A stretch of 64,000 nt of DNA, from contig JAZNXT010000138.1 in assembly GCA_045594005.1 (NCBI GenBank), forward strand, positions 9,034 through 73,033. The letters are read 5' to 3'. The notes under the pieces are model-generated. The model saw only the letters and a program-made list of their open reading frames with translations, searched no databases and was not told the DNA's origin. This document shows, piece after piece, positions 19,558-48,123 of this stretch. Position numbers and translations under genes: made by a program. How positions within the stretch are numbered: the stretch's first letter is position 1; the number at the start of each line of letters is the position of its first letter. This DNA comes from Victivallales bacterium (lineage in GTDB: Bacteria > Verrucomicrobiota > Lentisphaeria > Victivallales > UBA1829).

Positions 19558-19576
19558 ATTCACTGGAGGATTTACA

Positions 19577-20713: not shown

Positions 20714-20729
20714 AACGGATTTCGCTGTT

Positions 20730-28755: not shown

Positions 28756-29733
28756 ATGAACCGGATCATTGTCACAGGGGGAGCGGGATTTATCGGATCG
28801 GCACTGGTGCGCTGGCTGATCCGGGAAACCGGTGATGCTGTCTGCGTGCTGGATAAACTCACTTACGCCGGGAATCCGGACGCATTGGCAGAAGTCGCCG
28901 CAGATCCGCGTTACAATTTCGTGAAAATGGATATCTGCGACCGCGCCGGAGTCCGGAAACTTTTTGCAGATTTCAAGCCGACTCACATTATGCACCTTGC
29001 GGCGGAATCCCACGTGGACCGCTCCATTGCATCCGGAGAAGAATTCATCCGCACCAATATCGACGGCACATTCAATCTGCTGGAAGCGGCACGGGAATAC
29101 GGAAAACTGGTCATGTTTCACCATATTTCCACCGATGAAGTGTATGGAGATCTGCAGGAAGGCGCGTTCACGGAAGAAAGCCCTGTCCGCCCCAGCAGTC
29201 CCTATTCCGCCAGCAAAGCGGCTGCCGATCATCTTGTCCGTGCCTGGTATCGCACTTACGGACTGCCGACCATCGTAACAAACTGTTCCAATAATTTCGG
29301 ACCGTGGCAGCATCCGGAAAAACTGATCCCCCACATGATCCACCATGCCGTCACCGGGCAATCGCTGCCGATTTACGGCAACGGATGTCAGGTGCGGGAC
29401 TGGCTGTATGTGGAAGACCATGTCCGCGCCCTGTATCTTGCGGTGACGCGCGGCAAAGCGGGCAGCACCTACAACATCGGAGCAAACTGCGAATACAGGA
29501 ATATCGATCTTGTGAAAAAGATCTGCGGCATACTGGATGAACTCAAGCCCCGTCCGGACGGAAAATCTTATACGGAACAGATCGAATTCGTGGCAGACCG
29601 TCCCGGACACGATGTGCGCTATGCCATCAATGCAGGAAAGATCAGAAAAGATTTACACTGGCTGCCGGAATTTGATTTTGAAACGGCACTACGCAAAACC
29701 GTGATATGGTATCTCAATAAAGGGTCTTTCTGA
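28756..29733 (+). CDS. rfbB: dTDP-glucose 4,6-dehydratase
   Basis: Trimmed from a TTG-extended track ORF to ATG 28756. It has [20 protein letters not shown] and [12 protein letters not shown] (YxxxK). The C-terminus is typical of RmlB. Confidence 0.93.
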
Positions 29734-31186
29734 TCAGATCGCGCCAGACTGTTTCGCCCGCCGCCTGACGGAATACAGAAAACGAGGCGAGGCAGGTTCC
29801 CATCACTCCCGGCACCAATGCACTCTGACCTGCCGCAAAAAAGTTTTCCGCCGGCAGTTTCCCGAACAGCCGTGCCTGACCGCAGATGCTCCGGGTTCCG
29901 TAAGCACTGCCCGTGGGCGGATCGTAGTCCAGACAAGTCAGCGGGGAACCGGATTCCACAACTGTGAGATGGTCTTTCAGCTGCGGATAAATGCCGGTGA
30001 TCTCCTGTTGGATCTCATCACAAAGATGCGTCTTGAAGTTCTGATATTCCTCCTGTTTCAGGCGTTCGCGGTGCGAAATCCTGAATCCTTCCGGCAAATG
30101 TTCCAGCCGCATGGTGCGGAACGCGGAAATGGAAGTTTTGCCGTCTTCACGGCTGATCTGGATCCCGGTACTGGAGGAATTTCTGCCGTCCAGCAGGATC
30201 GAATCCACATCGTTTGCAGTAAAATAAGAGGTCAGCCCTGCGGGTATCTCCACACCATCATCCACCAGAAAATAGGCACAGAAAAAGCTGCAGGATTCCT
30301 GCATCCGCCGGACACGCCGCAGGAAGGACGGTGTGCGTGCATTTTCCGGCAGTAAAGACGCGATGGCAGAAGGGTGTACAGTGAAAAACACCTGCTCCAC
30401 GGAAACGCTGGAACCATCGGAAAAATATGCGGTATTTTCGTCTTTGAACGGCAGAAGTTCCGCAGAGGTACGGATCTCGATATCCAGTTTTGCCGCTTCC
30501 CGTTTGAATCCGTCGATCATGGAATCGCCGCCGCGATGCGGACGGGCAAGATCGTGATGCAGCGCGTAGGATACCCGTGCATGAAAACTCACAGGTGCTT
30601 CATTGAAGGGCGTTCCGTGGCACATGGCAAAACTGCCTGCGGCAGTCATTGCGGCGGGATCGGTCAAATTCAATTCATTGCGCCAGACTTCCTCCACCGT
30701 TTGGATATCGCTGCCGGAAATGGTCAGTTCCAGCGGGGAAAGATCCCGCAGATCCGCCATGGGAGTGCTTTGCCAGATTTGCCGTTCCTGTTCAAAAAGT
30801 TTGCGGAGCGCATCGGCGGAACCGGGGAACGCGCGGCAGAATATATCTTCCGTCCCGGCATGTCCGCATCCGGCGGGCAGAAAAATATCGTGTGCGCCGT
30901 CCCGGAGGACGATCCGGTGGGGGATGGGTGTTCCGCCGACCATATCATCCATTCCCAATATCTGCATCATTTGAGTCATCACACCGGAAAAACCGCCGGT
31001 AAAATGATAGCCGGTATCGAAAAACGCGCCTTTGCGTCTGAACCGCCGCAGATATCCGCCGATCTCCGGCTGGGAATCAACAAGCAGCACCGGTCTTCCG
31101 GTCTTTGCCAGCAGCAGAGCGAGGGTCATGCCGCCGGCACCTGCACCGACGACCAGTGTTTTTTTTCTGTGAGCAACGGGAATCAT
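29714..31186 (-). CDS. CrtI/phytoene-desaturase-like FAD-dependent oxidoreductase
   Basis: 490 aa with the N-terminal dinucleotide fold [40 protein letters not shown] overlap with the fabG stop. Its 3' end overlaps the convergent rfbB by 20 nt. Confidence 0.8.
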
Positions 31187-31911
31187 ATCACCAGACCGCC
31201 GTTGACGGCAATGACCTGACCGTGGATATAGGTGCTGTCCGGTCCGCAGAGGAAGCTGACCACTCCTGCGATCTCCTCCGTTTTTCCGGCACGGTGCAGC
31301 GGGATCAGCGGCAGGAATTGTTCTTTTGGCAGATCTCTGGTCATATCCGTTTCGATCACGCCGGGCGCGACCACATTCACCAGGATCCCTTTTCTGCCGA
31401 CTTCCCGCGCCAATGCCTTTGCCGCTCCGATGAGCGCGGCTTTGGATGCAGAATAATTCACCTGCCCCGCCTGTCCGGTCTGACCGGATGCCGAACTGAT
31501 GATCACGATCCTTCCCCGTTTTTTTGCCAGCATCCCGAAGACCAGCGGCTGAACGGTGTTGTAGAATCCCTCCAGATTGGTGGAGAGAACGTTATCCCAT
31601 TCATTTTCATCCATAAACACAAAAAGATTGTCCCGGCTGATCCCGGAATTGTAGATCACTGCATCCGGCGGAGCATCGGAAGGGAAGGCTTCAGCAAGGA
31701 CGGCACGGGATCCGGAGCGGTCGCACACATCCAATTCCAGGATAGTGGCAGAACTGCCCGCTTCGGAGACCGCCTGAACGAGAGATTCCGAATCGCTGCC
31801 TTTTTTCCGGCAGGTGGCAAAAATATCGAATCCGTCTTTTGCAAGGCGGATGGCGATGGCGCGGCCGATCCCGCGGCAGCCGCCGATGATGAGAGCTTTT
31901 TTCGTATTCAC
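31183..31911 (-). CDS. fabG: 3-oxoacyl-ACP reductase (SDR)
   Basis: 242 aa with KALIIGGCRGIGRAIA and YSASKAALIGAAKAL (YxxxK). It sits between the KS and the oxidoreductase in one operon. Confidence 0.9.
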   Translation of the reverse strand: MNTKKALIIGGCRGIGRAIAIRLAKDGFDIFATCRKKGSDSESLVQAVSEAGSSATILELDVCDRSGSRAVLAEAFPSDAPPDAVIYNSGISRDNLFVFMDENEWDNVLSTNLEGFYNTVQPLVFGMLAKKRGRIVIISSASGQTGQAGQVNYSASKAALIGAAKALAREVGRKGILVNVVAPGVIETDMTRDLPKEQFLPLIPLHRAGKTEEIAGVVSFLCGPDSTYIHGQVIAVNGGLVI

Positions 31912-31917
31912 TGTTTT

Positions 31918-33165
31918 TCACTCCTTCCAGCGTCTGAACAGCAATGCGGTGTTGTGACCGCCGAAGCCCAGACTGTTGACTATGGCATATTCTGTATTGA
32001 CTTGTTTTGCATCCAATGCCGTCACATCCAGATCACATTCCGGATCCTGATCTGTACAGTTGATGGTGGGCGGCACGATCCCCGTGCGCAAAGTCTGAAT
32101 GGCAGAGATCGCGCCGATGGGTCCGGATGCACCGATGGTATGACCGATCATACTCTTGATGGAGTTCACGGCAATATGGTCTGCGTGCGTGCCGAATACA
32201 CTGCGGATCGCACGACATTCGCTGACATCGTTGGCTTTTGTGGCGGTCCCGTGGGCGGCGATATGCCCGATTTCTTCCGGTACGCAACCGCCGTGACACA
32301 TGGCTGTTTTCATGGCACGGGCAATACCGTCCCCTGCGGGATCGGGTGCAGTGATATGATATGCGTCGCAGGTCGCACCGTATCCGGCAAATTCCGCCAA
32401 TATTTCCGCGCCCCGTTTCCGGGCGTGTTCCAATTCCTCCAGCACCAGAAGACCTGCTCCTTCGGAAAAGACGAAACCATCCCGGTTTTTATCAAACGGA
32501 CGGCTTGCTTTCTGCGGATCGTCATTGCGCGTACTCAACGCCGTGAGTGCCGCAAATCCGGAAAGGAGAGAAGGCGTGATACAGGCTTCCGAACCGCCTG
32601 CAAGCATCACATCCGCATCCCCCCGTTTGATCATCCAGAACGCCTCTCCAAGACCGTGCGCACCGGAGGCGCAGGCGGAAGCCGCAGAAAAATTGCATCC
32701 TTTGAACCCGTAACGGATCCCCAGTATCCCGGAGGCATTGTTGGAAATGAAGGTGGGGATGTAAAACGCGGAAACGCCGGACGCACCGCGGTTGGCACAG
32801 GCAATGATATTTTTTTCCAGCACCTCCAGACCGCCGGATCCGGATGCGGCAAGAACGCCGCAGCGATAAAGATCCAGCGCAGGATCATGGGGTCCCAGTC
32901 CCGCTTGTGTCATGGCTTCGTGAGCGGCGGCAACGGCAAAGCGGGTGTACCGGGCAAACCGCCGTTCCTCTTTTTTATTCACATTCTGCAATTCCAGATC
33001 GCGTACTTCGCCGCCGAATCTCACCGGCATACCGGACACATCAAAAAGGGTGAGCGGCGCGATCCCGCTTCTGCCGTGGATCAGCGTATCCCACAAGGCA
33101 TCCACACTGTTTCCGCCGCAGGAAACGGATCCCATCCCGGTAATGACGACACGCCGTTCTTTCAT
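31918..33165 (-). CDS. beta-ketoacyl-ACP synthase (FabF/FabB-type, Cys-His-His)
   Basis: Trimmed to ATG 33165 (AGGAGA RBS), giving MKERRVVITGMG. The active-site contexts are SACASG, AAHGTATKAND and IGHTIGASG. ATGA overlap with the upstream hydrolase stop. Confidence 0.92.
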   Translation of the reverse strand: MKERRVVITGMGSVSCGGNSVDALWDTLIHGRSGIAPLTLFDVSGMPVRFGGEVRDLELQNVNKKEERRFARYTRFAVAAAHEAMTQAGLGPHDPALDLYRCGVLAASGSGGLEVLEKNIIACANRGASGVSAFYIPTFISNNASGILGIRYGFKGCNFSAASACASGAHGLGEAFWMIKRGDADVMLAGGSEACITPSLLSGFAALTALSTRNDDPQKASRPFDKNRDGFVFSEGAGLLVLEELEHARKRGAEILAEFAGYGATCDAYHITAPDPAGDGIARAMKTAMCHGGCVPEEIGHIAAHGTATKANDVSECRAIRSVFGTHADHIAVNSIKSMIGHTIGASGPIGAISAIQTLRTGIVPPTINCTDQDPECDLDVTALDAKQVNTEYAIVNSLGFGGHNTALLFRRWKE

Positions 33166-34169
33166 TGTTTTTCTCCTGTAAAGCCGTGTTGTTTCAGCCA
33201 ATCCAGCAATTCGCCGGACCATTTTGCAGTTTCCGGGAATTTTTCTTTTTCGCGTGCGGTCATCAACCCCATTCCATGGGGACCGTGTTCATAAATGATG
33301 GTTTTATGGTCGATATTGTTTTCCGTGAGCGCACGATCCAGCATCCGTGCATTTTCCGGATCCACGCAGGTATCCTCCAATGTCTGCCACAAAAATGACG
33401 GGGGGAAATCCGGAGTGATCTGCTGTTCCAGAGAAAGTTTCTTCACCAGTTCATCCGGCGGATTTTTTCCGATGAGATTGGCGCGGCTTATGGCGTGGGC
33501 ATATCCTTTTTCCATCGTCACCACCGGATAACAGAACACCACAAAATCGGGCGTGGCGCGTACCTGATCCACCGGATCGTTTTCCGGAAGGGTGTGTGCA
33601 GTGGGTTCCCGCCAGGTGCAGGCAAGCCCTGCAAGATGTCCGCCTGCGGAAAATCCCATAGTACCGATCCGGTCGGGATCGATCCCGAGCTGCGGCGCAT
33701 AATAACGGATCAGCCGGATCACACGCTGTGCGGATTCCACCATTGCCGGATGGCGTTTGAAATGCCCGAACATGGAACCGAGGGGATATTTCACCGCGAT
33801 CCCGGCAATACCGTTTTGAGCGAGAAATTCTGCGATCGCGCGTCCTTCCTTCTCAAAAGCCAGCACACCGTATGCGCCGCCGGGATACACGATCACCGCG
33901 GGGATCTTTCCGGCAGATCTTTTTTCCGGCAGATGAATGGTAAAACAGTTCATCCCGTCATCATCAAAGATATGATAAAAGCGTTGTTTTTTTTCTTGCG
34001 GAGCGTGGGGAACAGCATCATTTTTCCGGTTGGGAAAAGAAAAGAGAAATGCCAGATTGTGGCGGATCTTTGTAAAATAATCGACCACGGGCGTAAAAAT
34101 GCTGCGTGTTTCCGGTTGCTGTGCCGTCATAGCGGATCCTGTCCTGTTGCTTTGAAATTTTCTGTTCAT
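33162..34169 (-). CDS. alpha/beta hydrolase (esterase/lipase-like)
   Basis: It has the GFSAGGHLA nucleophile elbow and an oxyanion-type VIVYPGGAYG. The start is uncertain (ATG 34169 or 34130). The track start at 34283 would run through the strong plus-strand promoter at 34272-34300. Confidence 0.75.
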   Translation of the reverse strand: MNRKFQSNRTGSAMTAQQPETRSIFTPVVDYFTKIRHNLAFLFSFPNRKNDAVPHAPQEKKQRFYHIFDDDGMNCFTIHLPEKRSAGKIPAVIVYPGGAYGVLAFEKEGRAIAEFLAQNGIAGIAVKYPLGSMFGHFKRHPAMVESAQRVIRLIRYYAPQLGIDPDRIGTMGFSAGGHLAGLACTWREPTAHTLPENDPVDQVRATPDFVVFCYPVVTMEKGYAHAISRANLIGKNPPDELVKKLSLEQQITPDFPPSFLWQTLEDTCVDPENARMLDRALTENNIDHKTIIYEHGPHGMGLMTAREKEKFPETAKWSGELLDWLKQHGFTGEKQ

Positions 34170-34271
34170 CAATAATGTCAATATATAATAAATTGCAGAA
34201 AAATCAAGTATTCCACCGTTTTTTTCTGTGCGGCGGATCGAATTTTTTTGAAAAAAAATGAGAATCACATC

Positions 34272-34548: not shown

Positions 34549-35574
34549 ATGATCATCATCCTCAAAGAGAATCCCGAAGCAAAACAAATGAACGATCTTT
34601 CCGCATGGCTGCAGGAACAGGGAGTGGAACTCCACGCCACCAAAGGGCTGCATCAGACCATCCTCGGATTGATCGGTGATACCTCCCGTATCGATATCGA
34701 TCTGATCAAACAGATGGATATTGTGGACGATGTGAAACGCGTGCAGGAACCTTTCAAATGCGCCAACCGCAAATTCCACCCGCTGGATACAAAGATCACG
34801 CTGAAAAACGGTACCGTGATCGGCGGCGGTAATATGACCGTGATGGCAGGTCCCTGCTCCGTGGAATCGGAAGAACAGATCATTACCGTGGCACAGAGCG
34901 TGAAGGCTTCCGGAGCAAATCTTCTCCGTGGCGGTGCTTTCAAACCCCGTACATCGCCTTACGCGTTCCAGGGTTTGCGCGGCGAAGGGATCCGCCTCCT
35001 GCTGGAAGCAAAAAAAGTTACCGGTCTGCCCATCGTCACAGAGATCATGGATCTTTCCCAGCTGGACCTTTTTGCGGATGTGGATGTGATTCAGGTAGGC
35101 GCACGCAATATGCAGAACTTTGAACTGCTCAAACAGTTGGGACATTGCAAGAAACCCATTCTGCTGAAACGCGGGCTGGCAAATACGTATCAGGAACTGC
35201 TGATGAGTGCCGAATATATCATGGCATCCGGCAATGAATCGGTGATGCTCTGCGAACGCGGGATCCGCACATTCGAGACCTACACACGGAATACGCTGGA
35301 TATTTCCGCAATCCCCGCCCTCAAGACGCTCTCCCATCTGCCGGTGATCATCGACCCCAGCCACGCGGCGGGTCACGCACGGTTCGTCAATCCCCTCGCC
35401 CTTTCCGCCATCGCGGCGGGTGCGGATGGGTTGATCATTGAAGTCCACAACAATCCCTCCAAAGCGTTGTGCGACGGTGTGCAATCTCTCACCATGGAAG
35501 ATTTCGCCGCCCTCATGCCCCGTCTGAATGTGATGAAAGATGCCCGCATGACCTGCGAAACGATAGGAAAATAA
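34549..35574 (+). CDS. 3-deoxy-7-phosphoheptulonate (DAHP) synthase, type I-beta with N-terminal ferredoxin-like regulatory domain
   Basis: 341 aa. Core motifs are GPCSVESEEQ and FKPRTSPYAFQGL. The roughly 70-aa N-terminal extension (MIIILKENPEAKQMNDLSAWLQEQGVELH...) resembles that of Thermotoga-type enzymes. Confidence 0.93.
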   Translation: MIIILKENPEAKQMNDLSAWLQEQGVELHATKGLHQTILGLIGDTSRIDIDLIKQMDIVDDVKRVQEPFKCANRKFHPLDTKITLKNGTVIGGGNMTVMAGPCSVESEEQIITVAQSVKASGANLLRGGAFKPRTSPYAFQGLRGEGIRLLLEAKKVTGLPIVTEIMDLSQLDLFADVDVIQVGARNMQNFELLKQLGHCKKPILLKRGLANTYQELLMSAEYIMASGNESVMLCERGIRTFETYTRNTLDISAIPALKTLSHLPVIIDPSHAAGHARFVNPLALSAIAAGADGLIIEVHNNPSKALCDGVQSLTMEDFAALMPRLNVMKDARMTCETIGK

Positions 35575-35577
35575 ATC

Positions 35578-36747
35578 ATGGAAGATCACTATAAAGACGG
35601 AAATATCTCTCCGCTGAAAGAAAGCCGTGCAGAGATCGATACTATTGATTCCGAAATACTTGCGTTGTTTCAGAAACGCATGGATCTCTGCGCAAAAATC
35701 GGTGAAGAAAAACAGGCGCACGGTCTGCCGCTGGAACATCCGGAACGGGAACGGGAAATTTTGCTGAAGGTCACAAAAGATTCCCCCTCCGATCTGGCGG
35801 CATCCGCACGGATGCTTTTCAGTACACTCTTTGAATTGAGCAAAGCCTATCAACGCCGTCTGACTCCGAAAGGTTCGGAATTTGCACGGACACTGCAGCT
35901 TGCGGCGGAAAACGCGGAACACAATTTCCCGGAATCGGCACGGATCGCCTGTTGCGGTCTGCCGGGAGCCTACGCTCAAATCGCAGCAGACCGGATGTTT
36001 CCGCTGGCGGATATTTCCTATTTCAACAGTTTTTCCGCCGTATTTCAGGCAGTGGAAAAAGATTTCTGTTCCTACGGTGTCCTGCCGGTGGAAAATTCCA
36101 GTGCCGGAACCGTGGATGCAGTTTATGACCTGATGAAAGATCACAAGTTCTACATCGTGCGGAGTCTGCGGCTGAAAGTGCGTCATTCCCTGCTGCTGCC
36201 GCCGGGCGTGAAACTTGCCGGTGTGAAAGAAGTCATTTCCCATGAACAGGCATTGAAACAATGCAGCATCCGTCTGAATCAATTTGGGGACATCAAACAG
36301 ACCACAGCACCCTCCACCGCGTGGGCGGCGCGTTATGCGGCGACTTGCGGCAGAAAAGATGTGGCTGTCATTGCCAGTCCGGAGTGTGCGCCGCTTTACG
36401 GTTTGACTCTGGCGGAACGCTCCATTCAAAACAATGATTTCAATTTTACGCGATTCATCTGTATTTCCAAGAAACCGGAGATCTATCACGGCTCCGACCG
36501 GATCAGCATCATGGCGGCATTGCCTCATAAAGCGGGCAGTCTGAACAGCCTGCTTTCCCGGTTCGCCGCACTGGGATTGAACCTGACGAAACTGGAAAGC
36601 CGTCCCATTCCCGGAGAAGATTTTGAATATCTTTTCTACTTTGATTTTGAGGCGGATCTGATGAATGAGGAAGTGCGGTCGCTCCTGGCTGAACTTTCCG
36701 AAGAAAGTGAAAATTTTGTTTTTCTGGGGAATTACCGCTGTCTGTGA
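35578..36747 (+). CDS. pheA: bifunctional chorismate mutase / prephenate dehydratase (P-protein)
   Basis: 389 aa. It has an N-terminal CM helix (LKESRAEIDTIDSEILALFQKRMDL), a PDT domain with the TRF motif (NFTRFICI), and an ACT domain with ESRP (TKLESRPIPG). Confidence 0.93.
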   Translation: MEDHYKDGNISPLKESRAEIDTIDSEILALFQKRMDLCAKIGEEKQAHGLPLEHPEREREILLKVTKDSPSDLAASARMLFSTLFELSKAYQRRLTPKGSEFARTLQLAAENAEHNFPESARIACCGLPGAYAQIAADRMFPLADISYFNSFSAVFQAVEKDFCSYGVLPVENSSAGTVDAVYDLMKDHKFYIVRSLRLKVRHSLLLPPGVKLAGVKEVISHEQALKQCSIRLNQFGDIKQTTAPSTAWAARYAATCGRKDVAVIASPECAPLYGLTLAERSIQNNDFNFTRFICISKKPEIYHGSDRISIMAALPHKAGSLNSLLSRFAALGLNLTKLESRPIPGEDFEYLFYFDFEADLMNEEVRSLLAELSEESENFVFLGNYRCL

Positions 36748-36825
36748 TGTTGAAAAATGCCGCATTTCATGGTATATTAAATGCGGTATGTTTGAGATCT
36801 CAACGGCAGGAAGGAAAATAAAAAG

Positions 36826-37470
36826 ATGTCATACTACACACGATTCACAGAAAACGGCTGGAACCCGGAAGAATGGCAGATCGTGCGCAGTCCGCGGTGG
36901 CTGGATGTGAGCCATTGGGAACAGTACAGCGACCATATTGCAAATTATGTACCTGCCGATTTGAAGCCGGAAGATATGCAGATGGGACGGGATCGCACCG
37001 GAGAAAGTTATATCAGTATGCTTTTGAAAACGCCGGTCAACGGCAGCAGCCGCATTTCCACGGTGTGCGCATTTGACAGCCGCATGGCTCCGCTTCTGGT
37101 TCTTTCCAAAGAATTGGGAGATGTCCACCATGAACATCTGGAAGTGGTTTTGTACGACCGCGGGATCAATCTGTGGCATCACTTTTTCCATGACGGCAAA
37201 CCCTCCTGGAAACTGATCGGATTCATTGAACTGGATCTCAAGATCGGCGAAAAATATACGCTCTCGGCAGAAATGCGCTTTACGCATAAAGGCAAATTTC
37301 TCATCATGGCGTGCAACGAACATTCTTTCGGCTGCCGTATTGCAGACGACTGGAGTGATACTTATTATGTGGGCTTCACCGGCTGTGAAGGCAGAAACCG
37401 TTTTTATGATTTCCGCCTGACTCCCGGTGCAAGTGAATCCGAAGCCATGAAGGAAAGGACATCCGACTGA
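36826..37470 (+). CDS. hypothetical protein
   Basis: 214 aa with a GGAAGGA RBS. The composition looks coding and the antisense ORF looks like a shadow. I recognise no family; it may be a beta-sandwich protein. Confidence 0.65.
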   Translation: MSYYTRFTENGWNPEEWQIVRSPRWLDVSHWEQYSDHIANYVPADLKPEDMQMGRDRTGESYISMLLKTPVNGSSRISTVCAFDSRMAPLLVLSKELGDVHHEHLEVVLYDRGINLWHHFFHDGKPSWKLIGFIELDLKIGEKYTLSAEMRFTHKGKFLIMACNEHSFGCRIADDWSDTYYVGFTGCEGRNRFYDFRLTPGASESEAMKERTSD

Positions 37471-37539
37471 AAAATTTTTATTTGAATTGAAGCGAAAACG
37501 ATTCAGAACTTTTGAGGAATTTTGAAATTACCTCATTCA

Positions 37540-37630
37540 TCATTGCGGGGTGCTGCTGTCAAAAAAACAGCGGCTGAGATCATACCCATTGAACCTGATC
37601 CGGATAATACCGGCGAAGGGAACAATATCA
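37540..37630 (+). promoter_or_regulatory. TPP (THI-box) riboswitch controlling thiC
   Basis: gcGGGGTGCtgctgtc...cagcggCTGAGAtcatACCCattgAACCTGATCcGGATAATaCCgGCGaAGGGAAc matches the conserved TPP aptamer elements in order. It ends about 70 nt before the thiC ATG. Confidence 0.92.
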
Positions 37631-37701
37631 AAACAACTGATTTCCGGCGTTGCATACCAGCCTCCCCCGCGTAAACTCAAAACGAGAAGGAGAAAAGAAG
37701 T

Positions 37702-38991
37702 ATGTCAACCCAGATGACAGCCGCACAGAACGGCGAAATCACTCCGCAGATCCGTACAGTGGCGGAGTACGAAAACCGCAGCGTCGAATTTATCCGCGAA
37801 CGCGTTGCCGACGGCAGGATCGTGATCCCCGCCAATATCCACCACAAAAATCTGAATCCCGTCGGGATCGGCAGAGAACTCCTGACCAAGATCAATGCCA
37901 ATATCGGCAATTCCGCCAATTCCAGCTGTGCCGGAGCGGAAAAACAGAAACTCGCTCACGCCGTGAAATACGGAGCCGATACCGTGATGGATCTGAGTAC
38001 CGGCGGCGGGATCGATCTCATCCGCAAAGCGATCATTGAAGCAAGCCCCATTCCCGTCGGCACAGTTCCCATTTATCAGATCGTGGCAGAACACGGATCC
38101 GATGATTTTGACGGAAAATATATCCTTGAAGCCATTGAAAAACAGGCACAGCAGGGCGTGGACTATATGACCATTCACGCAGGCTTGCTCCAGCATCATG
38201 TGCCGATGGCAATGAAACGCACGCTGGGGATCGTGAGCCGCGGCGGGTCTCTCCTTGCCCGCTGGATGAAACAGCATAATGCCGAAAACCCGTTCTATAC
38301 CCATTTTGACGAAATCCTGGAGATCTGCCGCGAACACGATGTGACGCTCTCCCTCGGTGACGGGCTCCGTCCTGGATGTCTTGCCGATGCCTCCGATGAA
38401 GCACAGTTTGCCGAACTGGATACATTGGGGGAACTGGTCCGCCGCTGCCGTGCCGCCGGAGTGCAGGCAATGGTGGAAGGACCCGGTCATGTGCCGTACA
38501 ATGAAATCGAAATGAACATGAAACGGGAACGGGAAGTCTGCGGAGATGCTCCGTTCTATATTCTCGGTCCGGTGGTGATCGATTGCGCACCCGGATACGA
38601 TCATATCACAGCAGCTATCGGCGGGACTGCAGGCGCGTATCACGGTGCCGCCATGTTGTGCTATGTGACACCGATGGAACACCTCGGTCTGCCGGAAGCG
38701 GAAGATGTCCGCAACGGTGTGATCGCCTTCAAGATCGCAGCACATGCCGCCGATGTGGCATTGCAGAAACCCGGAGCCGATCGCCGCGATCATGCCATCT
38801 CCCTTGCCCGTGCCGCGTTCGATTGGGAAAAACAGTTTGATCTTGCATTGGATCCCGAACGGGCGCGGGAATTCCGGAAACGGGCGGAAGATGCCGCCGG
38901 AGTCAAAGTGCAGCACGGATCGGAATACTGCACCATGTGCGGACCGGATTTCTGTTCCATGCGGATCAGCCGCGATCTGAAAAAAGATTGA
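37702..38991 (+). CDS. thiC: phosphomethylpyrimidine synthase
   Basis: 429 aa with a GAAGGAG RBS. It has the conserved ThiC core ([20 protein letters not shown]) and the C-terminal [12 protein letters not shown] cluster motif. Confidence 0.97.
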
Positions 38992-39004
38992 TATTGTCCG
39001 GATG

Positions 39005-39082: not shown

Positions 39083-39110
39083 TTGACACTGCATGATCTT
39101 TGATTATATT
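39083..39110 (+). promoter_or_regulatory. sigma70-like promoter of the APE-like locus
   Basis: TTGACA (39083-88), a 16-nt spacer, then TATATT (39105-10). It lies between the thiC terminator and the first KS gene. Confidence 0.5.
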
Positions 39111-39184
39111 ATAATAATTGCGGCAACAAGGTGTTTTTTTACCGCAATGAAAGAAGAAGAACAACAAATAACAACGGATCAGGC

Positions 39185-40414
39185 ATGACAAATACACGCA
39201 GAGCAGTCGTTACCGGTATCGGGGTGATCAGCCCTTCAGGCAATTCTGCCATCGAGCTTTATGATTCCCTGAAAAACGGCCGTTCCGGCGTCCGCGGGAT
39301 GACGGAATGGAAAGACTATTTCGGCAAGGTCATTGCCAATGCACCCGTCACACTGGACCCGGCACGGATCAAACAGATCAACCGGAAAGTCCGCCGGACG
39401 ATGGGTAATGCCGCGTTGTTTTCCGGTCTGGCGGCACAGGAAGCTGTCCTTCAGAGCGGGATCGATCCGGCGGAATTCACCAATGGCAGGACAGCTGTGG
39501 TGATCGGCTCCACCGTGGGGAGTGCATCCAGTATGGCGGAAGCGTGCATTGCGGAGAATGAAGGCAGGAGAGATGATCTTTCCAGCTGTCATTTTTTCCG
39601 TATGATGAGCCATTCCTCCAGTTTCAATGTGGCGGATCTTTTCGGGATCAACGGGATCCAGCTTTCCCCCTGTGCCGCATGTGCTTCCGGGCTTCAGGCA
39701 CTGGGGACCGCGCAGGAACTGATCCGGCTGGGAAAAGCGGATGTGGTTCTGGCCGGCGGTTCGGATGAATCCACCAGTCTTGTGGCATCCTCCTTCCAGC
39801 TGCTCTACGCGCTGGCGGAAGAAGAAACTGCCGAACCCGATAAACTGCCCCGTCCCTTTGACGCAAACCGCACCGGGCTTGTCTGCGCGGAAGGCGCGGG
39901 GATCCTGGTGGTGGAAGAATATGAACACGCGAAAAATCGGGGAGCGGAGATCCTTTTTGAGATCGCCGGTTATGCCACAAACTGTTCCGGATGGCATGTG
40001 AGCCATTCCGATGAAATGCAGATCGCCAACTGTATGCGTACAGCCATGCAGGATGCGGGGATCAATGCGGATGAGATCGACTATGTGAGTGCCCATGCCA
40101 CCGGCACGAAAGTGGGTGATCAGGCGGAAGCGGCGGCGATCCGGCAGGTCCTCGGGGACAAGGTGCCGGTATCCAGTCTGAAGGGTCATATCGGGCATAC
40201 GCTGGGGGCGTCCGGTGCATTGGAGCTGGCGGCAGTCCACGGGATGATGAAAGACGGGATCGTGCTGCCTACGCGGAATCTGGAAACGGTCACGGACTGT
40301 GCAGGGATCTGTCTGCCGCAGAACATTATGGAACACCGGGTCCGCACCTTTGTGAAAAACAGCATTGCCTTCGGCGGAGTGAACACCAGTATGGTTTGCA
40401 GGGTCATTGATTAA
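39185..40414 (+). CDS. beta-ketoacyl-ACP synthase (Cys-His-His; ApeR/ApeO-like)
   Basis: Trimmed from a GTG-extended ORF to ATG 39185, giving MTNTRRAVVTGIGVISPSG. Active-site contexts are CAACASG, SAHATGTKVGD and IGHTLGASG. Confidence 0.92.
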   Translation: MTNTRRAVVTGIGVISPSGNSAIELYDSLKNGRSGVRGMTEWKDYFGKVIANAPVTLDPARIKQINRKVRRTMGNAALFSGLAAQEAVLQSGIDPAEFTNGRTAVVIGSTVGSASSMAEACIAENEGRRDDLSSCHFFRMMSHSSSFNVADLFGINGIQLSPCAACASGLQALGTAQELIRLGKADVVLAGGSDESTSLVASSFQLLYALAEEETAEPDKLPRPFDANRTGLVCAEGAGILVVEEYEHAKNRGAEILFEIAGYATNCSGWHVSHSDEMQIANCMRTAMQDAGINADEIDYVSAHATGTKVGDQAEAAAIRQVLGDKVPVSSLKGHIGHTLGASGALELAAVHGMMKDGIVLPTRNLETVTDCAGICLPQNIMEHRVRTFVKNSIAFGGVNTSMVCRVID

Positions 40415-40451
40415 ACATACAAAAAACAAAACGAACGGAGAGAAAAAGAAG

Positions 40452-40730
40452 ATGAACAGAGATGAGATCGTTCAGGCAGTCAATTCCATTTTTATTGACC
40501 GTTTTGAATTTGATGAAGCGGAATTGACGCCCGAAAAGAAGATCTTTGACGATCTGGAACTGGACAGTCTGGATATTGTGGATATGATCGTGGGACTTCA
40601 GCAGAAATTCGGAGTGAATCTGCGTGAAAACAAAGATATCCGGGAAGCAAAAACACTGGATGATGTGTATAACATTTTTGAAAAACTGATCGCGGAACAT
40701 CCGGAGATCGCCGATAAGATCCGCAGTTGA
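40452..40730 (+). CDS. acyl carrier protein
   Basis: Trimmed to ATG 40452 (GGAGAG RBS). 92 aa with the phosphopantetheine-attachment context LELDSLDIVDMIVGLQQKFG. Confidence 0.9.
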   Translation: MNRDEIVQAVNSIFIDRFEFDEAELTPEKKIFDDLELDSLDIVDMIVGLQQKFGVNLRENKDIREAKTLDDVYNIFEKLIAEHPEIADKIRS

Positions 40731-40735
40731 GAGAT

Positions 40736-41491
40736 ATGACCTTCCTGCGCAGTTTCGCCATTTATTTTTCCACCGTGTTCTGGGCGGTCCTCTATTGGGG
40801 GATCGTGCTTGTGCCGCTGCTGCTTTCCCTGTTTCTGCCGGTGAGGATCCGTCAGAAATTTGTACGGATCCTGCTGCTGTGGTTCGGTCTTCTTACCATC
40901 CATGGGGCATGGCGGCCGTTTTTCCGGGTGAGTTTCAAAGATCTTTCCGGCAGTCCGCTGACACCGGGTGTGGTGGCGGTCAATCACCGGGCGGCGACAG
41001 ATGCGTTTCTGGTGGCGATGCTGCACAGCAGTTGTGCGCAGACCGTGAACGGCTGGCCGATGCGGACTCCCATTATCGGGACGGTGGCATATCTGGCGGG
41101 ATATTTGAATATCACCAACTGGAGTTTTGAAAAATTGCGTTCACGCGCGGAAACCGTTATAAAGTCAGGGGATGTGATCGTATCATTTCCGGAAGGGACG
41201 CGCTCGGAATCGAAAGAAATGAACCCGTTTCACAGCGGGATCTTTCAACTGGCTCTGGAATTGAATCTGCCGGTCCATATTTTGTGTATCGCGGGGAATG
41301 AGTTTATGCCGGACCGGAAATTCCGTTTCCGCTGTTTCAGGAAGGTGCTGACCCGCAGGATCGTATCCCTTTCCGCAGAAGAAGTACAGAATTGCGGCAC
41401 GGCATTTGCCTTGAAAAAAACGGTATTCCGGATGATGAAAGAAGAACTTGCACGGATGGATGAGGAGTTGGAAAATGAAAACAGAATTTGA
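40736..41491 (+). CDS. lysophospholipid acyltransferase (PlsC/LPLAT family)
   Basis: It has NHRAATD (the HX4D motif) and FPEGTRS, with N-terminal membrane spans. It overlaps the next gene by 17 nt. Confidence 0.85.
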   Translation: MTFLRSFAIYFSTVFWAVLYWGIVLVPLLLSLFLPVRIRQKFVRILLLWFGLLTIHGAWRPFFRVSFKDLSGSPLTPGVVAVNHRAATDAFLVAMLHSSCAQTVNGWPMRTPIIGTVAYLAGYLNITNWSFEKLRSRAETVIKSGDVIVSFPEGTRSESKEMNPFHSGIFQLALELNLPVHILCIAGNEFMPDRKFRFRCFRKVLTRRIVSLSAEEVQNCGTAFALKKTVFRMMKEELARMDEELENENRI

Positions 41492-47727: not shown

Positions 47728-48123
47728 ATGGATTCGATCATCGGAAATGAATTGCGGAAACGCCTGAAAGATCTTTCCGCATTGGAAAATAAAGAAAACA
47801 CATATTGCTGCCGGATCTTTTTCGACCGGGCGTTCCGTGGATTTGAAGGACATTTTGAAGGCAATCCGGTAGTCCCCGGTGTCTGTCTGATAGAACTGAT
47901 CCGGGTTCATACGGAGGAGATCCTGCAGAAAGAATTGATCGTGAAAGAGATCGGTCAATGCAAATTCCGCAGTCCGTTCCTTGCCGGTATGGAAGGGGAA
48001 TGTATCACTCAAATCAGAGAAGCGGACGGCGGCATTTTTTCTGTTCAGGCGGAGATCCGGAACGACAGCGGCTCTGCCTGTAAGATGAAGCTGGTTCTGA
48101 CAGAAAGGGCGGCGGCACGATGA
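47728..48123 (+). CDS. 3-hydroxyacyl-ACP dehydratase, hotdog fold (ApeP/FabZ-like)
   Basis: 131 aa with the catalytic-His motif context FEGHFEGNPVVPGVCLIELI. Confidence 0.85.
   Translation: MDSIIGNELRKRLKDLSALENKENTYCCRIFFDRAFRGFEGHFEGNPVVPGVCLIELIRVHTEEILQKELIVKEIGQCKFRSPFLAGMEGECITQIREADGGIFSVQAEIRNDSGSACKMKLVLTERAAAR

What the first reader, a model, noticed from the sequence alone, without database searches (positions are those of the whole stretch)
29714..34169. Translationally coupled hydrolase / KS / FabG / CrtI-like oxidoreductase operon that supplies the ketoreductase missing from the APE-like locus
Seen: four minus-strand genes are joined by ATGA overlaps (33162-33165 and 31183-31186) and a 6-nt gap.
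- An alpha/beta hydrolase with GFSAGG.
- A complete Cys-His-His KS.
- An SDR ketoreductase.
- A 490-aa phytoene-desaturase-like flavoenzyme.

The main lipid locus at 39-54 kb has KS, CLF, DH, TE and ACP genes but no ketoreductase.

Established: canonical APE loci include a FabG-like reductase (ApeQ) but no CrtI-like desaturase. CrtI-like genes next to FAS genes have been proposed, not proven, to act in ladderane lipid formation in anammox bacteria.

Inference: the two loci work as one split system. The flavoenzyme would perform an extra desaturation or isomerisation of the acyl/polyene chain.
Basis: partly seen in the sequence, partly recalled or inferred. Interest (0 to 1): 0.55.

Follow-up and report, generated by a model that had tools for sequence, protein, structure and literature searches.

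The report
Detached reductase–flavoenzyme module of lipid cluster
Four tightly linked genes (esterase, chain-extending enzyme, ketoreductase, flavin enzyme) are the split-off part of the neighbouring aryl-polyene-like lipid gene cluster of a gut or rumen Lentisphaeria bacterium; in most related anaerobes the same reductase–flavoenzyme pair sits directly in front of that cluster, whose product is still unknown.

Summary
Four minus-strand genes (esterase, FabF, FabG-type reductase, 490-aa flavoenzyme) are joined by two ATGA overlaps and a 6-nt gap. The 39-54 kb locus has no ketoreductase, and no other SDR lies in the 64 kb.

The main inference, one split system, is strongly supported by synteny.
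- In 80 genome loci found through the flavoenzyme, FabG lies directly upstream in 74 of 75 testable cases. These come from Lentisphaerota (including cultured Victivallis vadensis), Verrucomicrobiota, Nitrospirota, Desulfobacterota and Omnitrophota.
- Genes of the same cluster lie within 10 kb in 66 of 69 loci, usually as FabG-Flav-KS1-ACP-AT-ligase-rSAM-LolA-RND-DH-TE-KS.
- The closest relatives carry esterase-FabF-FabG-Flav contiguous with the cluster.
- The split, by four unrelated housekeeping genes, is lineage-specific.

The FabG is ApeQ-like: its best solved relative is A. baumannii ApeQ, and it is 36% identical to a housekeeping FabG.

The flavoenzyme has a CrtI/amine-oxidase fold but fails every CrtI-family cut-off. 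Its reaction is unknown.

This is not a canonical APE locus. It is the radical-SAM plus "phytoene-dehydrogenase-like" type first noted in Kuenenia and Desulfotalea in 2009, an orphan cluster family. I rate it a new member of a known kind, of moderate interest.

The parts
33162..34169 (-). Alpha/beta-hydrolase (BD-FAE / acetyl-esterase-like) with GFSAGG. The probable true start is 34130 (322 aa). It is a lineage-specific accessory gene.
   Evidence: BD-FAE 67 bits; PaeX-like 161 bits, below cut-off. The homologue sits in the same position in L001-L008, L044, L082, L084, L085 and L163.
31918..33165 (-). FabF-type beta-ketoacyl-ACP synthase II with Cys-His-His-Lys intact. Its start overlaps the esterase stop (ATGA). 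It is a lineage-specific accessory gene.
   Evidence: TIGR03150 532 bits against a cut-off of 494; active site; 47% identical to a housekeeping FabF. It is present only in the closest relatives.
31183..31911 (-). ApeQ-like 3-oxoacyl-ACP reductase (SDR). It is the only ketoreductase in the window and a core gene of the cluster family.
   Evidence: It lies directly upstream of the flavoenzyme in 74 of 75 loci. It is the most conserved cluster gene, with median identity 63%.
29714..31186 (-). FAD flavoenzyme of 490 aa with a CrtI/amine-oxidase fold. It belongs to a distinct family with the motifs FDTGYHF, MCHGT, FHARVSY and ESCSFF. It is a core gene of the cluster family.
   Evidence: (pLDDT 89; TM 0.73 to 4REP), (669 family representatives at E<=1e-30).
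34180..34207 (-). Sigma-70-like promoter match upstream of the esterase. This is weak evidence.
   Evidence: 9 of 12 matches.
34549..38991 (+). Spacer between the two halves, not part of the system: DAHP synthase, chorismate mutase/prephenate dehydratase, a 214-aa unknown, a TPP riboswitch (37536-37639) and thiC.
   Evidence: These genes are not linked to the cluster in any other locus except the 86%-identical relative L082.
39083..39112 (+). Strong promoter-like site before KS1, preceded by the terminator at 39004-39035 after thiC.
   Evidence: 11 of 12 matches.
39131..40414 (+). KS1 (PRK09116-like ketosynthase; probable start 39185). In most relatives it lies immediately downstream of the flavoenzyme.
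40407..40730 (+). ACP1 (probable start 40452).
40727..41491 (+). Lysophospholipid-type acyltransferase (ApeD-like).
41448..42767 (+). PaaK/FlxY/ApeH-like aryl-acid adenylating ligase (probable start 41475).
   Evidence: (FlxY 414 bits, below the cut-off of 520).
42780..44228 (+). Radical SAM/SPASM enzyme, orthologue of Kuste3343, fused to a C-terminal FabZ/ApeP-like hot-dog domain (43797-44225).
   Evidence: (39% identity, 1e-81), and (6QSR_B, E 3e-17).
44192..44791 (+). LolA-like carrier (ApeL-like; probable start 44216).
44773..47721 (+). RND/MMPL exporter (ApeM-like).
47728..48123 (+). ApeI/FabZ-like dehydratase.
   Evidence: (weak match; the homologue is PF22818 ApeI-like).
48120..48596 (+). 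4HBT thioesterase (ApeK-like).
48593..49687 (+). KS2, a short ketosynthase that keeps Cys-His-His.
49684..50319 (+). Conserved protein of unknown function.
50316..51905 (+). Glycosyltransferase family 2 fused to a lipid-A-type acyltransferase (ApeJ-like). The start is inferred from a 4-nt overlap.
51994..52269 (+). ACP2, a second acyl carrier protein.
52313..54211 (+). KS3 with a C-terminal PF13723/AmcG-like half-KS domain (a KS-CLF-like fusion).

Best explanation
The four genes at 34169-29714 are a detached transcription unit of the aryl-polyene-like type II PKS/FAS lipid cluster at 39.1-54.2 kb.

Ancestrally the cluster was contiguous: esterase-FabF-FabG-Flav-KS1-ACP-AT-ligase-rSAM-LolA-RND-DH-TE-KS2-x-GT-ACP-KS3. 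In this lineage the first block was inverted, and four housekeeping genes now lie between the halves.

How it most likely works:
1. The PaaK/ApeH-like ligase loads an acid starter on an ACP. This is inferred.
2. KS1, KS2 and KS3 extend it with malonyl units. This is inferred.
3. In every round the FabG encoded here reduces the beta-keto group with NADPH, as the ApeQ equivalent. Homology and synteny are shown; activity is inferred.
4. The ApeI-like DH, together with the ApeP-like domain fused to the radical SAM enzyme, dehydrates the intermediate, giving an unsaturated chain.
5. The flavoenzyme is always co-encoded and usually translationally coupled with this reductase. I think it uses FAD to modify C-C or C=C bonds of the ACP-bound or finished chain. 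In these strict anaerobes that would be an oxygen-independent desaturation, double-bond isomerisation or saturation, probably in concert with the radical SAM enzyme. This is inferred from the fold and context only.
6. TE, acyltransferases, GT, LolA and RND attach the product to a lipid anchor and export it to the outer membrane, by analogy with ApeD/J/K/L/M.
7. FabF and the esterase are additions of the rumen/gut Lentisphaeria clade. They may provide extra elongation capacity and ester hydrolysis or remodelling. This is speculative.

My probabilities:
- The operon belongs functionally to the cluster: about 0.9.
- FabG is the cluster's ketoreductase: about 0.85.
- The flavoenzyme acts on the chain's carbon skeleton: about 0.55. 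The direction of the reaction is open.
For: Synteny:
- In 80 species-representative genome loci retrieved through the flavoenzyme, FabG is directly upstream on the same strand in 74 of 75 testable loci.
- KS1 is directly downstream in 45 of 63 loci.
- At least one gene of the partner cluster lies within the flanks in 66 of 69 loci.
- The closest relatives L001, L002, L004, L084 and L085 have esterase-FabF-FabG-Flav-KS1 and onward contiguous.
- L003, L005-L008, L044 and L163 have the block at the other end of the same same-strand cluster.
- In the reverse direction, from the radical SAM gene, 17 of 26 metagenome loci with a visible KS1 upstream region have FabG-Flav there.

No other reductase: there is no other SDR in the window.

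The FabG is ApeQ-like:
- The best solved relatives are A. baumannii ApeQ 7CAW/6NRP at 219 bits. The best FabG scores 185 bits and AbFabG 7CAZ scores 144 bits.
- The lid loop is 3 residues shorter than in FabG, as reported for ApeQ.
- It is 36% identical to a bona fide housekeeping FabG but 51-80% identical to cluster FabGs of other phyla.
- In A. baumannii the housekeeping FabG cannot replace ApeQ (PMC8041823).

The split is stable: it is conserved in an 86%-identical relative.

Independent splits at other breakpoints keep FabG-Flav together. L024 has a stand-alone FabG-Flav-KS1 operon with 4-nt overlaps among sugar genes.

Flavoenzyme: the model is confident (pLDDT 89) and has a CrtI/amine-oxidase fold.
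Against: - There are no expression, genetic or chemical data. Co-function rests on synteny in other genomes.
- Here the two halves have separate promoter-like sites and a terminator between them, so co-regulation is not shown.
- The FabG fails the curated cut-offs of the APE-type model TIGR01831 (246 against 339) and of FlxB (260 against 340). It just passes one FabG equivalog (278 against 273).
- The aryl-recognising Leu185 of ApeQ is Val here and Phe in Victivallis.
- The rest of the genome is unseen, so a second FabG or a dual housekeeping role cannot be excluded.
- The flavoenzyme is one of the less conserved genes (median 33% identity).
- It is only 22-28% identical to Kuste3336, Kuste3607 and CrtI. 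Nothing tells desaturase from isomerase, saturase or amine oxidase.
- The loci were ascertained through the flavoenzyme or the radical SAM gene, not through FabF or the esterase.
Confidence: 0.72

Rival explanations
1. The operon is part of housekeeping fatty-acid synthesis (fabF-fabG), and its position near the lipid cluster is coincidental.
For: - The KS passes the fabF equivalog cut-off and is 47% identical to a housekeeping FabF.
- FabG just passes one FabG equivalog model.
- The two loci are separate transcription units here.
Against: - There is no fabD, acpP, fabH or fabZ nearby.
- A true housekeeping fabD-fabG-acpP-fabF-rnc operon (L136) has a FabG only 36% identical to this one.
- The FabG's best solved relative is ApeQ.
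- The pair or the whole block is physically inside the cluster in nearly all relatives.
Confidence: 0.05
2. The flavoenzyme is a reductase (saturase or enoyl reductase) rather than a desaturase or isomerase. With KS, KR and DH it would complete a dedicated fatty-acid-like cycle, or partly saturate the polyene, so the product is an alkyl or partly saturated lipid and not a pigment.
For: - It is an obligate partner of the ketoreductase and often of KS1, as expected for an enzyme used in each elongation round.
- No other enoyl reductase is in the cluster.
- All hosts are strict anaerobes with little use for an antioxidant polyene.
- From my own knowledge, the CrtI superfamily includes saturases.
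Against: - No known bacterial enoyl-ACP reductase has this fold.
- There is no second nucleotide-binding domain for NAD(P)H.
- There is no direct evidence.
Confidence: 0.2
3. The flavoenzyme acts on the starter or head group rather than on the growing chain. It could be an amine/amino-acid oxidase-type enzyme, or a desaturase of an aryl-propionyl-type starter that replaces the 4-hydroxybenzoate supply anaerobes lack.
For: - Many of the best fold matches are amine oxidases: NicA2, MAO and 6-hydroxynicotine oxidase.
- The cluster has no TAL/UbiC-type starter enzyme.
- The ligase is of the PaaK (phenylacetate) type.
Against: - The best fold and sequence matches are carotenoid desaturases: 4REP at TM 0.73 and 4DGK.
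- The gene is tied to FabG and KS1, not to the ligase.
- Amine oxidases normally use O2.
Confidence: 0.15
4. The flavoenzyme is a genuine carotenoid desaturase (CrtI/CrtD) that happens to lie next to FAS-like genes.
For: The top NCBIfam hit is CrtD, and the best solved sequence match is CrtI.
Against: - The scores are far below the cut-offs: CrtD 53 against 550 and crtI_fam 34 against 238.
- There are no crtB/crtE-type neighbours in the window or the loci.
- The gene is always embedded in the FAS-like cluster.
- The anammox homologues Kuste3336 and Kuste3607 did not complement crtI (PMC4790861). They are only distant relatives of this protein.
Confidence: 0.03

Closest known systems
Aryl polyene (APE) gene clusters of E. 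coli, Xenorhabdus and Acinetobacter (ApeA-R), in particular the ketoreductase ApeQ
   Same: - The same parts list is present: an ApeH-like ligase, several KS genes, two ACPs, ApeI/ApeP-type dehydratases, an ApeK-like thioesterase, ApeD/ApeJ-like acyltransferase and glycosyltransferase, and LolA/RND export.
- The FabG here is most similar to solved ApeQ and shares its short lid loop.
   Different: - Canonical APE clusters have neither a radical SAM/SPASM enzyme nor a CrtI-like flavoenzyme (gene table in PMC8253772).
- Here the ApeP-like domain is fused to the radical SAM enzyme.
- All KS paralogues keep the catalytic Cys.
- The reductase is encoded 5 kb away on the other strand.
- The FabG fails the TIGR01831 cut-off.
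- The hosts are strict anaerobes.
The 'unusual FASII' clusters Kuste3335-3352 of Kuenenia stuttgartiensis and DP1853-1860 of Desulfotalea psychrophila (Rattray et al. 2009, PMC2649909). I recall, but did not check, that genome-mining tools label this type 'ladderane' or 'arylpolyene'.
   Same: - They show the same combination: FabG, FabF paralogues, ACPs, FabZ, a phenylacetyl-CoA-ligase-like enzyme, a glycosyltransferase, a membrane transporter, a radical SAM enzyme and an amine-oxidase-family 'phytoene dehydrogenase'.
- The radical SAM enzyme here is a clear orthologue of Kuste3343 (39% identity, 1e-81).
- The same cluster occurs in Desulfobacterota.
- The product is unknown in all cases.
   Different: - The flavoenzyme here is only 22-28% identical to Kuste3336 and Kuste3607. 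It shares little beyond FAD motifs plus F[KR]RKG and ESCSFF.
- Kuenenia has extra SAM methylases and a B12 radical SAM enzyme.
- Here an esterase and a canonical FabF are added.
- I did not compare sequences of the Desulfotalea proteins.
Anammox 'Cluster I' (Kuste3603-3608) with the phytoene-dehydrogenase homologue Kuste3607
   Same: - It also combines FAS-like KS, ACP and FabZ genes with a CrtI-like flavoenzyme and a radical SAM enzyme.
- The ESCSFF and F[KR]RKG motifs are shared with the flavoenzyme family here.
- Second-tier relatives of the family bridge to Kuste3607 better than to CrtI.
   Different: - Cluster I is anammox-specific and has a B12-type radical SAM enzyme.
- It has no ligase, LolA, RND or GT, and no KR.
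- Identity to the flavoenzyme here is 22%.
Flexirubin biosynthesis cluster (Flx proteins, Bacteroidota)
   Same: The ligase, FabG and LolA each have a flexirubin model (FlxY, FlxB, LolA2) as best or second-best NCBIfam hit.
   Different: - All scores are below the curated cut-offs.
- There is no Flx hit for the flavoenzyme or the radical SAM enzyme.
- No tyrosine ammonia lyase or DarA/DarB was seen.
CrtI/CrtD phytoene-desaturase family (FAD-dependent carotenoid desaturases and isomerases)
   Same: - The overall fold matches: TM 0.73 to gamma-carotene desaturase 4REP, and 4DGK is the best sequence match.
- The N-terminal GxGxxG and C-terminal FAD motifs are present.
   Different: - Identity is about 14-23%.
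- All curated family cut-offs are missed by a wide margin.
- The family-specific invariant residues (C189, H190, H202, R204, ESCSFF) are absent from CrtI.
- The genomic context is fatty-acid/polyketide-like, not isoprenoid.

Membership tests
ApeQ-type ketoreductase of aryl-polyene clusters | SDR fold with the Ser-Tyr-Lys triad and a Gly-rich NADPH motif | tested here: met
   adh_short, KR and adh_short_C2 all match. The sequence shows GGCRGIG, SSASG and YSASK.
ApeQ-type ketoreductase of aryl-polyene clusters | Closer to characterised ApeQ than to housekeeping FabG | tested here: met
   7CAW/6NRP (AbApeQ) score 219 bits. The best FabG scores 185 bits, E. coli FabG 172 bits and AbFabG 7CAZ 144 bits. 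Identity to the housekeeping FabG of L136 is 36%.
ApeQ-type ketoreductase of aryl-polyene clusters | Substrate-lid linker 2-3 residues shorter than in FabG (PMC8041823) | tested here: met
   The alignment to ApeQ has no gap in the lid linker. The alignment to S. aureus FabG needs a 3-residue gap there.
ApeQ-type ketoreductase of aryl-polyene clusters | Leu185 (aryl recognition) in place of the Phe of FabG | tested here: inconclusive
   The residue is Val in the window protein (PGVIETD) and Phe in the Victivallis orthologue.
ApeQ-type ketoreductase of aryl-polyene clusters | Passes the curated model for the APE-associated FabG relative (TIGR01831) | tested here: not met
   The score is 245.8 bits against a cut-off of 338.85.
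ApeQ-type ketoreductase of aryl-polyene clusters | Encoded inside an APE-type cluster | tested here: inconclusive
   In this window the gene lies 5 kb away on the opposite strand. In relatives it is inside or directly at the cluster in 66 of 69 loci.
ApeQ-type ketoreductase of aryl-polyene clusters | Reduces beta-ketoacyl (polyenoyl)-ACP of the cluster's own ACP | not testable with these tools
   This needs an enzyme assay.
Housekeeping FabG/FabF (type II FAS) | Curated equivalog cut-offs | tested here: inconclusive
   FabF passes clearly: TIGR03150 at 532 against 494. FabG passes NF004200 marginally (278 against 273) but fails TIGR01830 (248 against 298).
Housekeeping FabG/FabF (type II FAS) | fabH/fabD-fabG-acpP-fabF gene context | tested here: not met
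   There is no fabD or acpP in the window. For contrast, see the true fab operon in L136.
CrtI / phytoene desaturase family | Curated family cut-offs (TIGR02734 crtI_fam, TIGR02733 CrtD) | tested here: not met
   The scores are 34.1 against 238.1 and 52.7 against 549.7.
CrtI / phytoene desaturase family | FAD-binding Rossmann fold plus the CrtI-type substrate domain | tested here: met
   The model has pLDDT 89. Foldseek gives 4REP at TM 0.73, with 5MOG and 4DGK among the hits. The profile matches 4DGK at E 3e-12.
CrtI / phytoene desaturase family | Carotenoid pathway context (crtB/crtE) or activity on phytoene | tested here: not met
   No isoprenoid genes were identified in the loci. My tblastn labelling of the loci used only this window's proteins, and the ORFs flanking the L024 trio, scanned against Pfam, are sugar genes. 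Activity was not testable.
Canonical aryl-polyene BGC (ApeA-R type) | ApeH-like ligase, KS set, ACPs, ApeI/P dehydratases, ApeQ, ApeK, ApeD/J and ApeL/M | tested here: met
   All are present as homologues, most below curated cut-offs. ApeQ is supplied by the detached operon.
Canonical aryl-polyene BGC (ApeA-R type) | No radical SAM or flavin tailoring enzyme; product is a yellow aryl-polyene lipid | tested here: not met
   A radical SAM/SPASM enzyme and a CrtI-like flavoenzyme are core genes here. The product was not testable.
Kuste3335-3352 / DP1853-1860-type FAS-like cluster | Kuste3343-type radical SAM/SPASM enzyme next to a PaaK-like ligase, FabG, KS paralogues, ACP and GT | tested here: met
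   The radical SAM enzyme is 39% identical to Kuste3343 (1e-81).
Kuste3335-3352 / DP1853-1860-type FAS-like cluster | Amine-oxidase-family 'phytoene dehydrogenase' orthologous to Kuste3336 or DP1860 | tested here: inconclusive
   Identity to Kuste3336 is 28% over 128 aa. The gene numbering DP1860 to DP1855 would fit the order Flav-KS1-ACP-AT-ligase-rSAM, which is inference only.

The most novel reading that the evidence does not exclude
The obligate ketoreductase-flavoenzyme pair, together with the radical SAM enzyme fused to an ApeP-like dehydratase domain, defines an anaerobe-specific pathway. That pathway would remodel an ACP-bound polyenoyl or acyl chain without oxygen, by desaturation, isomerisation, cross-linking or cyclisation, into a lipid class not yet described.

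The flavoenzyme would then be the first CrtI-fold enzyme shown to act on fatty-acyl/polyketide-ACP substrates. It would also serve as a functional model for the unexplained 'phytoene dehydrogenase' homologues of anammox ladderane clusters.
Probability: 0.3. Interest if true: 0.75.

Novelty: new member of a known kind. Interest (0 to 1): 0.4.

Why it matters
APE-like clusters that carry a radical SAM enzyme and a 'phytoene-dehydrogenase-like' flavoenzyme were noticed in 2009 during the search for ladderane biosynthesis. Genome mining keeps flagging them in non-anammox anaerobes, including Desulfobacterota, Verrucomicrobiota and Omnitrophota, and now gut and rumen Lentisphaeria. No product or enzyme function is known for them.

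This analysis shows four things:
- The ketoreductase and the flavoenzyme form an almost inseparable pair across at least five phyla.
- The pair can be moved away from the rest of the cluster without being lost.
- The radical SAM enzyme is fused to a dehydratase protomer.
- A cultured organism, Victivallis vadensis DSM 14823, carries the contiguous version (L013).

These points give concrete handles for reconstitution experiments. There is also a practical lesson for cluster-calling software: here the essential reductase lies outside the main locus.

Tried and rejected
- An exact look-up of the window's flavoenzyme in the assembly index found nothing on record. Context therefore came from homologues.
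- I tested whether the DAHP synthase and prephenate dehydratase between the halves supply an aromatic starter. They are not linked to the cluster in any other locus, and thiC has its own TPP riboswitch. I rejected this idea.
- L136 looked like a flavoenzyme-less FabG-KS pair. It turned out to be the housekeeping fabD-fabG-acpP-fabF-rnc operon.
- My first label 'KS-DH fusion' for 52313-54211 was wrong. The C-terminal part is a PF13723/AmcG-like half-KS.
- Pfam on the C-terminal extension of the radical SAM enzyme gave nothing usable. A profile against PDB sequences did.
- Seven literature searches found no characterised product or enzyme for this cluster type or this flavoenzyme family.
- From the radical SAM gene, the 10-kb flanks are too short to see the pair when it lies at the far end of the cluster. 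The raw 17 of 37 is therefore a lower bound.
- I did not search outward from the esterase or the FabF. Their restriction to the cluster is known only from loci found through other genes.

Full report
**1. What is in the sequence**

On the minus strand, four ORFs follow each other from about 34.2 kb to 29.7 kb:
- An alpha/beta-hydrolase at 33162-34169. The longest ORF runs to 34283, and the likely start is 34130.
- A ketosynthase at 31918-33165.
- An SDR at 31183-31911 with a GTG start.
- A 490-aa flavoprotein at 29714-31186.

- ATGA at 33165-33162.
- Six bases (31917-31912) between the KS stop and the SDR start.
- ATGA at 31186-31183.

The family scans give the following:
- The hydrolase is BD-FAE/Abhydrolase_3, similar to acetyl- and aryl-esterases but below their cut-offs.
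- The KS is a FabF that passes the TIGR03150 cut-off (532 against 494).
- The SDR is of the FabG type. It just passes one FabG model and falls below the cut-offs of FlxB and of TIGR01831.
- The flavoprotein has NAD_binding_8 plus Amino_oxidase domains, with only weak N-terminal hits to CrtD and CrtI models (53 and 34 bits against cut-offs of 550 and 238).

The KS has Cys, His, Lys and His in place. The same junction pattern (4-nt overlap, short gap, 1-4-nt overlap) is found in relatives.

**2. The partner locus**

The plus-strand locus at 39.1-54.2 kb encodes the following genes, mostly joined by 4-nt overlaps:
- KS1 and ACP1.
- A lysophospholipid-type acyltransferase.
- A PaaK/FlxY/ApeH-like ligase.
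- A radical SAM/SPASM protein.
- LolA and an RND/MMPL exporter.
- An ApeI/FabZ-like dehydratase and a 4HBT thioesterase.
- KS2 and a conserved unknown protein.
- A glycosyltransferase fused to a lipid-A-type acyltransferase.
- A second ACP at 51994-52269.
- KS3, which carries a C-terminal half-KS domain.

The locus contains no SDR. tblastn with the FabG finds no other SDR anywhere in the 64 kb, and no fabD is present.

Between the two loci lie four unrelated genes: DAHP synthase, chorismate mutase/prephenate dehydratase, a 214-aa unknown and thiC, which has its own TPP riboswitch. A terminator and a strong promoter-like site precede KS1, and a weaker promoter-like site precedes the hydrolase.

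**3. Comparative test of the 'split system' idea**

The flavoprotein's homologues are annotated only as FAD-dependent or NAD(P)-binding proteins of Lentisphaeria. A profile of 16 of them retrieved 263 matches in species-representative genomes, of which the best 80 were kept. They come from:
- Lentisphaerota, including Victivallis vadensis DSM 14823.
- Verrucomicrobia and Kiritimatiellales.
- Nitrospirota/Thermodesulfovibrionia.
- Desulfobacterota.
- Omnitrophota.

I mapped the window's proteins onto these loci by tblastn:
- A FabG orthologue lies directly upstream on the same strand in 74 of 75 testable loci.
- KS1 lies directly downstream in 45 of 63 loci.
- At least one gene of the partner cluster lies within the 10-kb flanks in 66 of 69 loci.

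The usual order is FabG-Flav-KS1-ACP-AT-ligase-rSAM-LolA-RND-DH-TE-KS2-x-GT-(ACP)-KS3.

The closest relatives fall into two arrangements:
- hydrolase-FabF-FabG-Flav-KS1 and onward, contiguous (L001, L002, L004; also L084 and L085 in metagenomes).
- KS3-hydrolase-FabF-FabG-Flav at the far end of one same-strand cluster (L003, L005-L008, L044, L163).

The hydrolase and FabF occur only in this rumen/gut clade.

The intervening housekeeping genes accompany the cluster in no other locus except an 86%-identical relative, which shares the split. The split is therefore a young, lineage-specific rearrangement: an inversion of the four-gene block, with four genes now lying between the halves.

Other lineages split the cluster at other points but keep FabG and the flavoprotein together:
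- In L024 a FabG-Flav-KS1 operon with 4-nt overlaps stands alone among sugar-utilisation genes.
- Some human-gut contigs carry the complementary part, starting at the ACP (L113, L115, L117).

In the reverse direction I started from the radical SAM gene:
- 17 of 26 metagenome loci with a visible region upstream of KS1 have FabG-Flav there.
- I count 2 of the other 9 as carrying the pair on the same contig.
- The 10-kb flanks do not reach the far end of the cluster, so these figures are lower bounds.

**4. Identity of the reductase**

The FabG's best solved relatives are A. baumannii ApeQ (7CAW, 7CAX and 6NRP; 219 bits). Ordinary FabGs score lower: at most 185 bits, with E. coli FabG at 172 and A. 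baumannii FabG (7CAZ) at 144.

- The alignment to ApeQ has no gap in the lid linker, whereas FabG needs a 3-residue insertion there. This matches the feature described for ApeQ (PMC8041823).
- The FabG is 36% identical to a genuine housekeeping FabG from a fabD-fabG-acpP-fabF-rnc operon.
- It is 51-80% identical to the cluster-associated FabGs of other phyla, and it is the most conserved gene of the cluster.
- In A. baumannii the housekeeping FabG could not replace ApeQ in vitro. A dedicated reductase is therefore expected for such systems.

Against full membership:
- The TIGR01831 cut-off is missed.
- The aryl-contacting Leu185 of ApeQ is Val here and Phe in Victivallis.

**5. The flavoprotein**

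The AlphaFold model is confident (pLDDT 89). Its best structural match is a gamma-carotene desaturase (4REP, TM 0.73). Nicotine and monoamine oxidases, plant PDS and CrtI follow. The best sequence match among solved structures is CrtI 4DGK, at E 3e-12. It therefore has the CrtI/amine-oxidase fold at about 14-23% identity.

- The family has its own invariant residues: FDTGYHF, C189-H190-G191, H202/R204, ESCSFF and [11 protein letters not shown].
- At E<=1e-30 the family has 669 representatives among 1.84 billion 50%-identity cluster representatives.
- It is only 22-28% identical to the two Kuenenia 'phytoene desaturase' homologues Kuste3336 and Kuste3607, using sequences from the supplement of PMC4790861.
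- It shares F[KR]RKG and ESCSFF with Kuste3607. Second-tier relatives link it to the Kuenenia proteins more strongly than to CrtI.
- The Kuenenia proteins did not complement crtI.

Nothing available here separates desaturase, isomerase, saturase and oxidase chemistry. All hosts are strict anaerobes, so an oxygen-dependent reaction is unlikely. That last point is inference.

**6. What kind of cluster this is**

The parts list matches aryl-polyene clusters (ApeA-R; PMC8253772). Canonical APE clusters, however, have neither a radical SAM enzyme nor a flavoenzyme.

The radical SAM/SPASM protein here is a clear orthologue of Kuste3343 (39% identity, 1e-81). Rattray et al. described the same combination in 2009 for Kuste3335-3352 and for Desulfotalea DP1853-1860, with similar clusters in Geobacter and Pelobacter. 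That combination is:
- FabG and FabF paralogues.
- ACPs.
- A phenylacetyl-CoA-ligase-like enzyme.
- A glycosyltransferase.
- A membrane transporter.
- A radical SAM enzyme.
- An amine-oxidase-family 'phytoene dehydrogenase'.

Clusters annotated as 'ladderane' in non-anammox Desulfobacterota, Verrucomicrobiota and Omnitrophota remain unexplained (PMC9902471). A gut Victivallis-related genome was reported simply to contain 'an aryl polyene cluster' (PMC8863827). No product is known. As of 2026 no experiment links even the anammox clusters to a product.

**7. Mechanism proposed**

Shown:
- Gene content, coupling and synteny.
- The ApeQ-like nature of the FabG.
- The CrtI-type fold of the flavoprotein.
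- Orthology of the radical SAM enzyme to Kuste3343.
- A FabZ/ApeP-like hot-dog domain fused to the radical SAM enzyme. The profile matches 6QSR chain B at E 3e-17 and the anammox FabZ 8AYC at 1e-9. That 6QSR is the Xenorhabdus ApeI:ApeP complex is my recollection, not verified here.

Inferred:
1. The ligase loads an acid starter on an ACP.
2. KS1-KS3 extend it.
3. The detached FabG reduces each beta-keto intermediate.
4. The ApeI-like DH, with the ApeP-like domain of the radical SAM protein, dehydrates the intermediate.
5. The flavoprotein, always co-encoded with the reductase, changes C-C or C=C bonds of the chain without oxygen, possibly preparing or following the radical SAM step.
6. TE, acyltransferases, GT, LolA and RND anchor and export the lipid.

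FabF and the esterase are clade-specific additions of uncertain role.

**8. Rivals**

- Housekeeping FAS. The gene context, the identity pattern and the synteny argue against it.
- True carotenoid desaturase. The model scores and the context argue against it.
- Flavoprotein as saturase or enoyl reductase. This remains open.
- Flavoprotein as a starter or head-group enzyme. This also remains open.

**9. Verdict**

The flavoenzyme's reaction stays hypothetical.

The feature is a rearranged member of an already noticed but uncharacterised cluster family. It is not a new kind of system. Interest is moderate, because the family is widespread in anaerobes, touches the unsolved ladderane question, and has a cultured carrier in which it could be tested.

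Noticed in passing
window 42780-44228 (C-terminal part 43797-44225): The radical SAM/SPASM enzyme carries a conserved C-terminal domain of about 140 aa that Kuste3343 lacks. Its profile matches FabZ/ApeP-type hot-dog dehydratases (6QSR_B at E 3e-17; anammox FabZ at 1e-9). The catalytic His of the IPHKPP motif is Gln in the Desulfobacterota-type and Omnitrophota homologues examined (L058, L067, L078). The radical SAM enzyme may therefore be built into the dehydratase heterodimer.
   Followed up: partly
window 51994-52269 (+): A second acyl carrier protein (91 aa, DSLD motif, PP-binding 27 bits) is hidden inside a longer TTG ORF between the GT/acyltransferase gene and KS3. It is conserved in 25 loci.
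   Followed up: yes
window 52313-54211 (+): KS3 is a full ketosynthase fused to a C-terminal PF13723/AmcG-like half-KS domain, which looks like a KS-CLF fusion. All four KS paralogues in the window keep Cys-His-His, so none is a classical Cys-less chain-length factor.
   Followed up: partly
L024 8710-12693; also L026 and L031; L113, L115 and L117: In some Lentisphaeria the FabG-Flav-KS1 trio is a stand-alone operon with 4-nt overlaps among glycoside-hydrolase and LacI genes. Some human-gut contigs carry the complementary cluster starting at the ACP without the trio. These are independent splits at a different breakpoint. Whether the two kinds of contig come from the same genomes was not established.
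   Followed up: partly
window 37536-37639 (+): A TPP riboswitch (RF00059, 70 bits) lies upstream of thiC (37702-38991). A strong intrinsic-terminator-like hairpin follows at 39004-39035.
   Followed up: yes
window 29714-29733: The 3' end of the flavoenzyme gene overlaps the 3' end of the convergent dTDP-glucose-4,6-dehydratase-like gene (28696-29733, +) by 20 nt. The same convergent neighbour is seen in the 99% and 86% relatives (L081, L082).
   Followed up: partly
window 4001-6000 and 18001-24000: These stretches have G+C of 0.39-0.41 against about 0.50-0.55 elsewhere. They lie upstream of a block of glycosyltransferase and nucleotide-sugar genes starting near 26 kb, so they may be horizontally acquired surface-polysaccharide genes.
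   Followed up: no
L136 3106-7145: A metagenome contig has the housekeeping fabD-fabG-(acpP)-fabF-rnc operon placed divergently right next to the ACP-AT-ligase-rSAM part of this cluster type, with no KS1, FabG or Flav trio in view.
   Followed up: partly
P0148 (1009 aa) and P0153 (1044 aa), relatives of the flavoenzyme: Two double-length members of the flavoenzyme family each match the profile twice, as tandem fusions. Desulfotalea is reported to have two adjacent 'phytoene dehydrogenase' genes (DP2405 and DP2406), so some lineages may use a pair of these enzymes.
   Followed up: no
window 54246-55556 (+): A GH39-like glycoside hydrolase lies directly after KS3. Homologues (36-38% identity) also lie a few kb downstream of the stand-alone FabG-Flav-KS1 trio in L024, L026 and L031. 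This may be coincidence or a loose association.
   Followed up: no
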